A DNA stretch of 44,108 bases. It comes from Candidatus Saccharibacteria bacterium UBA6575. Lineage in GTDB: Bacteria; Patescibacteriota; Saccharimonadia; Saccharimonadales; Saccharimonadaceae. Shown here piece by piece: positions 10,392 to 10,587 of the stretch. Under the pieces are notes generated by a model. That model was given only the letters and a program-made list of their open reading frames with translations. It made no database searches and was not told the origin of the DNA. The stretch lies in the NCBI GenBank assembly GCA_002434005.1, contig DJJF01000015.1, positions 1,004 to 45,111 on the forward strand, in the 5' to 3' direction. Position numbers and translations under genes: made by a program. The stretch's first letter is position 1. Every line of letters starts with the position of its first letter.

Positions 10392-10407
10392 ACTACCATG
10401 CAACAGT
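10392..10407 (+). repeat. Direct repeat copy 1 (ACTACCATGCAACAGT)
   Basis: Exact 16-mer that recurs 83 nt downstream. Confidence 0.9.
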
Positions 10408-10474
10408 CGGTGAGCCAGTCAGTTTAACTGCTATCTGGCAGAGCTACTGGAGCAAGACCTTATCGGAATCGGGC

Positions 10475-10490
10475 ACTACCATGCAACAGT
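10475..10490 (+). repeat. Direct repeat copy 2 (ACTACCATGCAACAGT)
   Basis: Exact copy of 10392-10407. Confidence 0.9.
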
Positions 10491-10587
10491 TTCTTTAAGC
10501 TGACTGCTTAGAGGGATGCAGTGCGTTCGTGCGCCTTCGGACAATTCGGTTTCAGGGTCGCCTTATTGGCGAAGAAAGGAGAATGAA

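What the first reader, a model, noticed from the sequence alone, without database searches (positions are those of the whole stretch)
10392..10507. Exact 16-bp direct repeat, with a helix joining the sequences just 3' of each copy, inside the RT-associated ncRNA
ACTACCATGCAACAGT occurs at 10392-10407 and again at 10475-10490, an 83-nt period. The sequence just 3' of copy 1 (GCCAGTCAGTTTAA, 10414-10427) is nearly the reverse complement of the sequence just 3' of copy 2 (TTTAAGCTGACTGC, 10494-10507). Pairing them would juxtapose the two repeat copies. Identical sequence at both ends of a short template, brought together by a helix, is the geometry needed for template jumping or rolling-circle reverse transcription, as reported for DRT2-type systems. 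A 16-mer recurring by chance within 100 nt is essentially impossible. The repeat could also be a duplicated protein-binding site.
Basis: seen in the sequence. Interest (0 to 1): 0.65.

Follow-up and report, generated by a model that had tools for sequence, protein, structure and literature searches.

The report
Young repeat inside a retron RNA
The exact 16-base repeat and the stem next to it are real, but they are a young, lineage-specific addition to the fast-evolving template region of a type VI-like retron RNA in a Saccharibacteria genome, not a conserved device for rolling-circle reverse transcription.

Summary
Observation confirmed. ACTACCATGCAACAGT occurs exactly twice (10392, 10475). 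Bases 10416-10427 pair with 10495-10506 (12 bp, one G-U; P about 0.008).

The locus is a 1.6-kb two-gene retron cassette in a Saccharibacteria chromosome: a structured RNA, a 52-aa small protein and a 280-aa RT. The best model is retron type VI. There is no HTH gene.

Both copies lie in the hypervariable, msd-like insert (10327-10506). This insert is about 80 nt longer here than in 18 relatives. None of those relatives has a comparable repeat. Among 72 more distant loci, one does.

A 93.5%-identical sister cassette keeps the arrangement, but copy 1 already differs (14/16, 1-nt deletion, period 82). Copy 1 drifts at about the neutral rate. Copy 2 sits in a 142-nt block with only 2 changes. Exact identity is therefore not selected.

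The RT scores 25 bits on Drt2 (cut-off 390). An 83-nt concatemer has stops in every frame.

Best reading: a young local duplication, one direct and one inverted copy of a constrained 32-nt segment, that lengthens the msd stem. DRT2-like jumping is unsupported but not excluded.

The family does carry short co-varying direct repeats. These resemble the repeats proposed to let type VI msDNA unlock toxin translation.

The parts
10135..11758 (+). Retron cassette as a unit: promoter, structured RNA, small-protein gene and RT gene
   Evidence: The only stretch shared with L112/L113, at 93.5% identity. The flanks are not shared.
10221..10229 (+). Extended -10 promoter element TGTTATAAT. The transcript start is inferred at about 10236.
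   Evidence: TATAAT is conserved at this position in 18 relatives. The start site is inferred, not measured.
10238..10251 (+). SL1, the conserved 5' stem-loop (GAUAC UCAG GUAUC)
   Evidence: 5 of 6 pairs show compensatory changes across 18 sequences. [quoted passage not shown]
10254..10260 (+). GUACGUU, copy A of a conserved 7-nt motif. Copy B is GUGCGUU at 10521-10527.
   Evidence: Nearly invariant in the family. The two copies are identical in 8 of 18 relatives and match 6/7 here.
10265..10284 (+). Leader whose parts can pair with 10546-10555 and with the SP ribosome-binding site (UCCUU with AAGGA)
   Evidence: Seen in MFE folds of the window, of L112 and of most relatives. Predicted only.
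10292..10314 (+). HP2 hairpin (AUGGC/GCCAU) whose loop GCUAU can pair with AUAGC at 10310-10314. This is a candidate pseudoknot.
   Evidence: HP2 has 1 compensatory pair. The loop-to-downstream helix has 4 of 5 pairs with compensatory changes.
10319..10326 (+). 5' arm (CCUUUAAG) of the helix that closes the variable insert. Its partner is 10507-10514.
   Evidence: 81% of cells are paired across 18 sequences, with no compensatory change. Plausible but not proven.
10327..10506 (+). Variable, msd-like insert V, the presumed reverse-transcription template. It holds both repeat copies and both stem arms.
   Evidence: By a common definition its length is 163 nt here and 34-109 nt in 18 relatives. 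It is unalignable between subfamilies. It corresponds to the non-conserved internal stem-loop of type VI ncRNAs.
10392..10407 (+). Repeat copy 1 (ACTACCATGCAACAGT), in the faster-evolving 5' half of V
   Evidence: It differs at 2 of 16 positions in the sister cassette (A10398C and loss of A10402).
10416..10427 (+). 5' arm of helix X (CAGUCAGUUUAA)
   Evidence: (I7). U10423 is C in the sister cassette, which makes the stem perfect there.
10452..10466 (+). GCAAGACCUUAUCGG, the homologue of the family 'alpha' repeat. CCUUAUCGG recurs as CCUUAUUGG at 10561-10569.
   Evidence: Aligns with GCGAGACCUACCGG of relatives. The alpha/beta repeat co-varies in 14 of 19 loci. See, D9.
10475..10490 (+). Repeat copy 2, inside a strongly constrained block
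   Evidence: Identical in the sister cassette. The block 10446-10587 has 2 differences in 142 nt, against 0.149 per synonymous site in the RT gene.
10495..10506 (+). 3' arm of helix X (UUAAGCUGACUG), directly abutting the closing helix
   Evidence: (I7). Invariant in the sister cassette.
10507..10514 (+). 3' arm (CUUAGAGG) of the closing helix. It can also pair locally with 10492-10499.
   Evidence: TAGAGG is invariant or nearly so in the family. The local alternative hairpin is what the MFE chooses. See, D7.
10559..10581 (+). Hairpin CGCC-UUAUU-GGCG followed by the SP ribosome-binding site AAGGAG (10576-10581)
   Evidence: Conserved arrangement in relatives.
10588..10746 (+). Small protein (SP) gene, 52 aa with a GTG start. 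It has a basic N-terminus (RRTKYERTTP) and a hydrophobic C-terminal segment (LLSALAQLIEKMTGLLY). Candidate toxic effector.
   Evidence: Conserved in 30 of 30 loci, always between the RNA and the RT. No library family matches it. Its synonymous divergence is only 0.027.
10726..10768 (+). Hairpin spanning the SP stop codon and the RT ribosome-binding site
   Evidence: I1. The same hairpin is visible in all relatives.
10769..11611 (+). Reverse transcriptase, 280 aa, YVDD active site, retron type VI-like
   Evidence: PADLOC RT_VI 3.6e-52 over 247 residues. Pfam RVT_1. NCBIfam retron models.

Best explanation
What the locus is. The repeat sits in the leader RNA of a small mobile retron cassette. 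The cassette holds a structured RNA, then a 52-aa small-protein gene, then a 280-aa retron-type RT. It is type VI-like but has no HTH gene.

Where the repeat lies. Both copies and both stem arms lie in the hypervariable insert that corresponds to the reverse-transcribed msd stem-loop of type VI retrons. In this lineage the insert has grown by about 80 nt.

How it arose (inferred). Part of that growth was made by copying pieces of one constrained 32-nt segment at the 3' end of the insert (10475-10506). The 16-mer was copied in direct orientation to 10392-10407. The following 12-mer was copied in inverted orientation to 10416-10427. The inverted copy creates a 12-bp stem that stacks on the family's closing helix and lengthens the base of the msd stem. 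The direct copy is a by-product.

What has happened since (shown by comparison). Both new copies were probably perfect when made and are now drifting. Copy 1 has taken 2 hits in the sister cassette, and the 5' stem arm has taken 1 hit here.

Consequence (inferred). Exact 16/16 identity is not required for function. It is not a programmed rolling-circle device. Its likely effect is incidental: cDNA made across copy 2 is complementary to copy 1, so occasional strand transfer could produce minor msDNA forms that are 83 nt shorter or longer.
For: System identity:
- RT_VI is the best model; retron models score 107-111 bits against Drt2 25 bits.
- Only SP and RT are conserved, in 29-30 loci.
- The RNA architecture is conserved. 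SL1 and the HP2 pseudoknot show covariation; whole-structure covariation exceeded all 500 shuffles (0 of 500 reached it).
- The architecture matches published type VI ncRNA features.

Location and uniqueness:
- The insert is 163 nt here and 34-109 nt in 18 relatives.
- No relative has a significant internal repeat: window score 32 against a null maximum of 20, and all relatives fall within their null range.
- The longest exact repeat elsewhere in the family is 11 nt or less.
- There is no repeat between the homologous sub-segments in relatives.
- Only 1 of 72 more distant RT loci has an exact repeat of 16 nt or more upstream.

Youth and lack of selection:
- In the 93.5%-identical sister cassette, copy 2 is identical but copy 1 reads ACTACCCTGC-ACAGT.
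- Copy 1 has 2 differences in 16 nt, close to the RT synonymous rate of 0.149.
- The block 10446-10587, which holds copy 2 and the 3' stem arm, has 2 differences in 142 nt.
- The stem arm in the drifting half differs by one transition that keeps pairing: G-U here, G-C in the sister.

Other points:
- The stem is the longest helix in the insert (P = 0.008) and abuts the closing helix.
- Against a coding concatemer: stops occur in all frames at 83 nt, the period is 82 in the sister, and the open frame at 84 nt also appears in 87% of shuffles.
Against: - Only two lineages carry the arrangement and there is no outgroup. The direction of the three changes, and the inference of neutral drift, rest on very few substitutions.
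- The stem is statistically unusual, and the one change in it preserves pairing, which would also fit a selected structure.
- The reason for the strong constraint on the block containing copy 2 is unknown.
- L001 and L058 (46-47% RT identity) have sequences weakly resembling the 16-mer at both homologous positions (L001: P = 0.1; L058: by eye only). An older, loosely maintained repeat is therefore not excluded.
- The nearest-neighbour model does not favour the stem.
- Where reverse transcription starts and stops in this RNA is unknown. Whether both copies are actually templated is therefore an assumption.
Confidence: 0.5

Rival explanations
1. Functional cDNA-to-RNA docking site. Reverse transcription stops between the two copies, so the msDNA carries the complement of copy 2 but not of copy 1. 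The msDNA then anneals over 16 bp to copy 1 on the same or another RNA and remodels it. This helps free the small-protein ribosome-binding site. It would be a long version of the 7-8-nt direct repeats proposed to act this way in type VI retrons.
For: - The published model for Retron-Vpa2 has one repeat in the msd and one outside it. There, msDNA made in trans derepresses SP, and the part of the msDNA carrying the repeat is essential.
- This family carries co-varying short direct repeats between the insert and non-template parts. The alpha/beta repeat appears as GCGAGACC, GCGGGACA, GCAGGACA or UGGGACA in 14 of 19 loci. A copy of the HP2-loop 5-mer lies in the insert, with co-variation in 4 variant lineages.
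- In the window lineage the family repeats are degenerate: GUACGUU against GUGCGUU, and CCUUAUCGG against CCUUAUUGG. A replacement is therefore conceivable.
- The 16-mer has no strong RNA partner (best duplex -11 kcal/mol), which fits a cDNA partner.
Against: - Copy 1 drifts at about the neutral rate, and the sister cassette has a mismatch plus a bulge.
- Copy 1 is about 180 nt from the ribosome-binding site, and no link between it and the site's sequestration is predicted.
- No relative has anything similar at these positions.
- In engineered retrons, sequence inserted into the msd is normally copied in full (general knowledge). Both copies would then be templated, and a repeat adds nothing for pairing in trans.
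Confidence: 0.2
2. Programmed strand transfer. After copying copy 1, the nascent cDNA end re-anneals to copy 2 and the RT copies the same 83 nt again, giving tandem-repeat cDNA. Alternatively it jumps forward from copy 2 to copy 1, giving a shortened msDNA. The stem holds donor and acceptor near each other.
For: - Sixteen identical bases on one template strand are ample homology for copy-choice. DRT2 needs only 3 nt plus a stem.
- The stem is non-random, is present in both cassettes, and its only change keeps pairing.
- Retron-Sen3, a type VI retron, makes two discrete ssDNA species of about 112 and 145 nt. Multiple products therefore occur in this class.
Against: - The RT is not a DRT2 RT (25 bits against a 390 cut-off), and no Rfam family matches the RNA.
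- The arrangement is absent from all other family members.
- Copy 1 is degenerate and the period is 82 in the sister cassette.
- The 83-nt concatemer has no open frame, and the open frame at 84 nt is expected by chance.
- The geometry differs from DRT2. The template is not enclosed by the stem, the two copies lie at opposite ends of it, and the RT must melt the stem to reach copy 1.
- Retron-Vpa2 yields a single 86-nt msDNA.
Confidence: 0.08
3. Two binding sites for one protein. Candidates are the RT, the basic N-terminus of the small protein, or a host or phage factor. The protein would recognise ACUACCAUGCAACAGU in RNA, or its complement in msDNA.
For: An exact repeat with sharp boundaries suits sequence-specific recognition. 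Both copies are predicted to be partly single-stranded (P unpaired 0.38-0.63).
Against: Copy 1 is not conserved in the sister cassette although the RT and SP are 94% identical. No relative has a repeated motif at these places although the proteins are conserved. There is no direct evidence.
Confidence: 0.07
4. RNA conformational switch. The two identical segments, and the overlapping repeat CUUUAAGGUG / CUUUAAGCUG, compete for the same partners, so the RNA toggles between two folds.
For: The 3' arm CUUAGAGG (10507-14) can pair with either 10319-26 or 10492-99 (D7). Bases 10416-27 can form either helix X or the hairpin that precedes the alpha motif. The constrained block could reflect several overlapping pairings.
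Against: The 16-mer itself has no good complementary partner anywhere in the transcript (best -11.2 kcal/mol). The switch candidates involve the flanks, not the repeat. There is no covariation evidence.
Confidence: 0.07

Closest known systems
Type VI retron, Retron-Vpa2 'hybrid RNA' (Zhang et al., bioRxiv 10.1101/2025.10.22.683967)
   Same: The RT matches the type VI model. A structured RNA lies upstream and is contiguous with a small-protein gene whose ribosome-binding site lies in predicted stems. Short conserved direct repeats link the template region to non-template regions. The proposed logic is that cDNA of one repeat pairs with the other.
   Different: There is no HTH gene in the cassette or in any of about 30 relatives. 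The host is Saccharibacteria. The repeat examined here is 16 nt, has both copies inside the variable insert, and is confined to one lineage. The published repeats are 7 nt and conserved across the type. The sequence of the published 7-nt repeat could not be obtained, so its equivalent here (GUACGUU or the alpha/beta repeat) is a guess.
Retron-Sen3 and cl2075 type VI retrons (Garcia-Rodriguez et al., bioRxiv 10.64898/2026.04.27.721009)
   Same: A conserved stem-loop lies at the 5' end. There is an internal stem-loop with a non-conserved central segment of very variable length, the candidate DNA stem-loop. The SP ribosome-binding site is in a basal stem. The SP coding sequence is under RNA-level constraint; here the synonymous divergence of SP is 0.027 against 0.149 for the RT.
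   Different: The gene order there is SP-HTH-RT, with HTH as antitoxin. Here it is SP-RT only. The SP sequences are unrelated at the sequence level. No long direct repeat is described there.
DRT2 rolling-circle reverse transcription (Tang et al., PMC11100668; Wilkinson et al., PMC12039810)
   Same: The ncRNA lies upstream of a free-standing RT. Identical sequence occurs at two places on the template strand, with a stem nearby.
   Different: DRT2 uses a 3-nt ACA repeat, one copy inside the stem that abuts the template. Its 120-nt unit gives a stop-less ORF, and the motifs are conserved across homologues. Here the RT is of another family, the repeat is not conserved, the unit is 83 or 82 nt with stops in all frames, and the stem does not enclose the template.
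Canonical retrons (for example Retron-Eco1/Ec86): msr-msd with a long msd stem
   Same: The RT family is the same. The variable stem-loop between conserved RNA parts behaves like an msd, whose stems differ greatly in length between retrons. An inverted duplication that lengthens the stem fits this pattern.
   Different: No a1/a2 pair with an adjacent branching G could be assigned here. The effector gene lies inside the structured transcript.
Direct-repeat deletion by copy-choice in retroviral reverse transcription (general knowledge, not tested here)
   Same: Two identical segments on one RNA template allow the growing cDNA to re-anneal to the other copy.
   Different: In retroviruses this is a by-product that depends on RNase H and on repeat length. 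Whether a retron RT does it on a 16-nt repeat is unknown.

Membership tests
Retron type VI | RT belongs to the type VI retron RT clade | tested here: met
   PADLOC RT_VI is the best of 62 hits: E = 3.6e-52, residues 10-256 on profile positions 23-272 of 279. YVDD motif present.
Retron type VI | Cro/C1-type HTH protein encoded next to or overlapping the RT gene (present in about 78% of type VI entries) | tested here: not met
   The cassette shared with the sister loci (10135-11758) holds only the RNA, SP and RT. Only SP and RT are conserved across 30 loci. More distant loci do have the HTH: L017, L020, L022, L023, L025, L027.
Retron type VI | Small protein (SP) gene between the ncRNA and the RT, with a hydrophobic C-terminal helix | tested here: inconclusive
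   A 52-60-aa ORF with its own AAGGAG site is conserved at this place in all 30 loci. Its C-terminus is hydrophobic by inspection. No sequence similarity to known SP clusters could be tested, and no structure was predicted.
Retron type VI | Structured RNA with a 5' stem-loop, a variable internal stem-loop and the SP ribosome-binding site in a basal stem | tested here: met
   SL1 and HP2 show covariation. The variable insert is bounded by conserved arms. Leader-to-RBS pairing appears in MFE folds of most relatives and of L112. That last point is prediction only.
Retron type VI | Conserved short direct repeats, one in the msd and one near the SP translation signals | tested here: inconclusive
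   GUACGUU occurs twice (perfect in 8 of 18 relatives, 6/7 here). The alpha/beta repeat co-varies in 14 of 19 loci.
Retron type VI | RT-dependent ssDNA (msDNA) made from the internal stem-loop | not testable with these tools
   Needs expression and cDNA mapping.
Retron (general) | a1/a2 inverted repeats flanking msr-msd, with a branching G | tested here: inconclusive
   An 8-bp perfect pair, 10280-87 with 10705-12, exists here (I18; P = 0.015). No consistent equivalent is found across relatives.
DRT2 | RT of the Drt2 family | tested here: not met
   NCBIfam Drt2 scores 25.3 bits against a cut-off of 390. Retron models score 107-111 bits.
DRT2 | Concatenated template unit encodes a stop-less ORF with the frame kept across junctions | tested here: not met
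   The 83-nt unit has stops in all six frames. Only with an assumed extra base (84 nt) is one frame open, as in 87% of shuffled units. The period is 82 in the sister cassette.
DRT2 | Jump motifs and the adjoining stem conserved across homologues | tested here: not met
   No repeat-plus-stem arrangement in 18 family members. No Rfam match in 9000-13000.

The most novel reading that the evidence does not exclude
A retron-type RT, not a DRT2 enzyme, uses the 16-nt repeat and the 12-bp stem for programmed strand transfer on its own RNA. The product would be tandem-repeat or alternatively spliced msDNA, whose amount or form controls translation of the embedded toxin. This would be an independent origin of template jumping inside the retron lineage.
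Probability: 0.08. Interest if true: 0.75.

Novelty: new member of a known kind. Interest (0 to 1): 0.33.

Why it matters
The finding itself is probably a young structural by-product, so it is mainly a caution. A perfect long repeat next to an RT gene need not be a jumping device, and one close relative was enough to show that its exactness is not maintained.

The surrounding system is of more use:
- It is a compact, mobile type VI-like retron without the HTH partner, found in Saccharibacteria, which are ultra-small episymbiotic bacteria.
- About 30 relatives have RNAs with short direct repeats that change in step between the template region and the region next to the toxin's ribosome-binding site.
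- That pattern is independent comparative support for the recently proposed idea that type VI msDNA acts as an antisense key that unlocks toxin translation.
- The natural pair of cassettes (16/16 against 14/16 repeat, G-U against G-C stem) is a ready-made experiment.

Tried and rejected
- **Wrong register first.** In one search I scored helix X and the closing helix one base out of register. The zero probabilities from that call are meaningless. I repeated the calculation in the right register and it again gave about zero.
- **Single 83-nt insertion flanked by a target duplication.** Rejected. The 67 nt between the copies contain family-conserved elements (the hairpin plus the alpha motif). 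The extra length is spread over several sub-segments.
- **Decayed tandem duplication.** Rejected. There is no similarity beyond the 16-mer on either side.
- **The 16-mer as this lineage's version of the family alpha/beta repeat.** Rejected. The alpha homologue is 10452-10466 and the beta region is 10551-10569.
- **A degenerate repeat at the same two positions in relatives.** Not significant in any of 13 loci. The best were L001 and L078 at P = 0.10.
- **Conserved long-range pairing between the leader and the SP coding region across the family.** Not consistent. Only the window, L112 and possibly L001 show it.
- **Hairpin around GUACGUU copy B.** Its pairing is not maintained across the family, so I dropped the claim.
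- **Retrieving Retron-Vpa2 RNA or repeat sequences.** The paper's supplements hold them only as images.
- **Exact-protein look-up of the window RT.** It found no contig. The sister cassette came from the 90% cluster member P0013.
- **Rfam.** No family matched.
- **Promoter scan.** It did not report the conserved TATAAT at 10224 because the -35 element is poor. The promoter assignment rests on conservation only.

Full report
**1. The observation**

The 16-mer ACTACCATGCAACAGT is present at 10392-10407 and 10475-10490 and nowhere else in the window, even with two mismatches allowed. None of 100 shuffles gave two matches. The spacing is 83 nt. Identity ends abruptly on both sides.

The inverted repeat is real in the register 10416-10427 (CAGTCAGTTTAA) with 10495-10506 (TTAAGCTGACTG). 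It has twelve contiguous pairs, one of them G-U (I7). It is the longest helix in the region, and only 0.8% of 500 dinucleotide shuffles reach that length.

- The stem does not bring the copies side by side. Copy 1 lies 8 nt outside the outer end and copy 2 lies 4 nt inside the inner end.
- Nearest-neighbour thermodynamics does not favour the stem. Its ensemble probability is about 0. Forcing it together with the closing helix gives -108.0 against -123.4 kcal/mol for the MFE.

**2. What the locus is**

The ORF at 10769-11611 is a 280-aa reverse transcriptase with a YVDD motif. Its best defence-library match is the retron type VI RT model (3.6e-52, nearly full length). NCBIfam retron models score 107-111 bits. 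Drt2 scores 25 bits against a cut-off of 390.

Between the repeat region and the RT lies a 52-aa ORF (GTG 10588-10746) with an AAGGAG site. It has a basic N-terminus and a hydrophobic C-terminus.

The closest RT relatives (42-53% identity) come from Candidatus Saccharibacteria/Saccharimonadales genomes and from metagenomes. Across 30 such loci only two genes are conserved, this small protein and the RT. More distant relatives have the canonical small protein-HTH-RT order of type VI retrons. This family lacks the HTH gene.

The window itself is chromosomal: ychF, a type IV pilus operon and threonyl-tRNA synthetase are present.

**3. The RNA**

I aligned the upstream regions of 18-27 relatives. 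The layout is conserved:
- a TATAAT box (10224-10229);
- a 5' stem-loop with compensatory changes in 5 of 6 pairs;
- the motif GUACGUU;
- a leader;
- a hairpin whose loop pairs with the sequence just downstream (4 of 5 pairs compensatory);
- a short helix (CCUUUAAG with CUUAGAGG; 81% paired, no compensatory change) that closes a variable insert;
- a second GUACGUU-like motif;
- a small hairpin and the small-protein ribosome-binding site.

This matches what two 2025-2026 preprints describe for type VI retrons. They report a 'hybrid RNA' that contains the reverse-transcription template and the translationally repressed toxin gene, a conserved 5' stem-loop, an internal stem-loop with a non-conserved centre of variable length, and the ribosome-binding site in a basal stem.

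No Rfam family matches.

**4. Where the repeat sits**

Both copies and both stem arms lie inside the variable insert (10327-10506). By a common definition this insert is 163 nt here and 34-109 nt in 18 relatives.

The extra length is spread over several sub-segments. The sequence between the copies contains family-conserved elements (a hairpin followed by GCAAGACC, which is GCGAGACC in relatives). The repeat is therefore not the scar of a single 83-nt insertion.

**5. Is the arrangement conserved?**

No.
- The longest exact direct repeat in any relative's RNA is 11 nt, within the shuffle range.
- Inside the insert, no relative has a repeat above its null distribution. The window scores 32 against a null maximum of 20.
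- Comparing only the homologous sub-segments gives nothing significant in 13 loci. The best were L001 and L078 at P = 0.10.
- Among 72 more distant RT loci, one has an exact repeat of 16 nt or more in the 900 nt upstream.

**6. The sister cassette**

A 90%-cluster member of the RT (P0013) led to two independent assemblies, L112 and L113. Only 10135-11758 is shared with them, at 93.5% identity. The neighbouring ychF is 77% identical, and window 6695-10134 is absent there. The retron is therefore a 1.6-kb mobile cassette.

In the sister cassette:
- copy 2 is identical;
- copy 1 reads ACTACCCTGC-ACAGT, with one substitution and one deletion, so the period is 82;
- U10423 is C, making the stem a perfect 12 bp.

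Divergence by segment:

| Segment | Differences |
|---|---|
| RT synonymous sites | 0.149 per site |
| Copy 1 | 2 in 16 nt |
| 5' half of the insert | 8 in 119 nt |
| 10446-10587 (copy 2, 3' stem arm, closing arm, RBS hairpin) | 2 in 142 nt |
| Small-protein synonymous sites | 0.027 per site |

Copy 1 and the 5' stem arm therefore lie in the faster-evolving half and accumulate changes at roughly the neutral rate. Copy 2 and the 3' arm, which are 4 nt apart, belong to a strongly constrained block.

The simplest history is this. Both the direct and the inverted copy were perfect when made, shortly before the two cassettes split, and they have been decaying since. This step is inferred from three substitutions and no outgroup.

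**7. Mechanism**

Shown:
- the locus is a retron-type, type VI-like cassette;
- the repeat and stem lie in the variable insert;
- they are lineage-specific;
- their exactness is not maintained.

Inferred:
- the insert is the template (msd);
- the 12-bp stem stacks on the closing helix and lengthens the msd stem, as msd stems vary among retrons;
- the 16-nt direct copy arose in the same local copying event;
- its main consequence is that cDNA of copy 2 is complementary to copy 1, which could allow occasional strand transfer.

I put this reading at about 0.5.

**8. Rivals**

(a) A functional docking site for msDNA, about 0.2. This is attractive because the family has short direct repeats that change in step between the insert and non-template parts. 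The alpha/beta repeat occurs as GCGAGACC, GCGGGACA, GCAGGACA or UGGGACA, 77-98 nt apart, in 14 of 19 loci. A copy of the hairpin-loop 5-mer occurs in the insert. The published model has msDNA pairing with such a repeat to release the ribosome-binding site. Against it: copy 1 drifts, is far from the ribosome-binding site, and would have to lie outside the templated part.

(b) Programmed jumping as in DRT2, about 0.08.
- The RT family is different.
- The arrangement is not conserved.
- The unit is 83 or 82 nt with stops in all frames. An open frame appears only with an assumed extra base, and 87% of shuffles then have one too.
- The geometry differs from the DRT2 stem that abuts the template.

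(c) A duplicated protein site, about 0.07.

(d) An RNA switch, about 0.07. The flanks do offer alternative pairings (D7). The 16-mer itself has no good RNA partner.

**9. Novelty**

The system is a new member of a known kind: type VI retrons, of which about a fifth lack the HTH gene, with candidate-phylum representatives already listed. The repeat is a local peculiarity.

The comparative signal of co-varying direct repeats, and the natural pair of cassettes that differ in exactly the elements of interest, are the useful outcomes.

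Noticed in passing
window 10135-11758 versus L112:1867-3491 and L113:26-1650: The retron is a 1.6-kb cassette, 93.5% identical between genomes whose adjacent ychF genes are only 77% identical. In L112 it sits directly next to ychF. Here 3.4 kb (6695-10134: a GDSL-lipase-like ORF, small ORFs and an unknown 277-aa ORF) lie in between. This suggests recent horizontal transfer or mobility of the cassette.
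   Followed up: partly
window 10452-10466 and 10561-10569; relatives L001, L004, L006, L055, L060, L066, L073, L075 and others: A 7-11-nt direct repeat has one copy after a hairpin in the variable insert and the other about 25 nt upstream of the small-protein ribosome-binding site, 77-98 nt apart. It changes in step between subfamilies (GCGAGACC, GCGGGACA, GCAGGACA, UGGGACA). This is comparative support for cDNA-to-RNA pairing in type VI retrons.
   Followed up: partly
window 10297-10314 and 10430-10434; relatives: The loop of the conserved hairpin (GCUAU here, ACUAU in most, ACAAU, ACUUG or ACUGU in others) pairs with the sequence just downstream (a pseudoknot candidate, 4 of 5 pairs compensatory). 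The same 5-mer recurs inside the variable insert in 11 of 18 loci, following the loop variant in four lineages.
   Followed up: partly
window 10588-10746: Synonymous divergence of the small-protein gene between sister cassettes is 0.027, against 0.149 for the RT gene. This indicates RNA-level constraint on the coding sequence, as reported for Retron-Sen3.
   Followed up: partly
window 10726-10768: A 20-nt-arm hairpin spans the small-protein stop codon and the sequence just before the RT start. It is present in all relatives. It may limit RT translation or mark the 3' end of the structured RNA.
   Followed up: no
window 10280-10287 and 10705-10712: A perfect 8-bp complement links the leader, just 5' of the conserved GACAUGG, to the small-protein coding region (P = 0.015). 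A C-to-U change in the sister cassette keeps the pairing as G-U. It resembles the a1/a2-like closure described for Retron-Vpa2 but is not consistent across the family.
   Followed up: partly
window 10320-10329 and 10493-10502: A second direct repeat, CTTTAAGGTG / CTTTAAGCTG, gives the invariant CUUAGAGG (10507-10514) two alternative partners: a long-range closing helix or a local hairpin. This is a possible conformational switch in this lineage.
   Followed up: partly
window 9166-9999 (-) and 12880-15138 (+): The ORFs flanking the cassette, of 277 aa and 752 aa, have no match in Pfam, NCBIfam or PADLOC.
   Followed up: no
window 15189-21941: A type IV pilus gene cluster (PilM, two T2SSE ATPases, a T2SSF platform protein) lies downstream. 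This is consistent with a Saccharibacteria chromosome.
   Followed up: no
L056 insert and L002 3' conserved part: A 13-nt identity (TTATCGGTCTGGC) links the variable insert of one family member to the riboregulator region of another. The motif UUAUCGG also occurs in the window at 10461-10466. This hints at exchange of short segments between template and non-template parts across the family.
   Followed up: no
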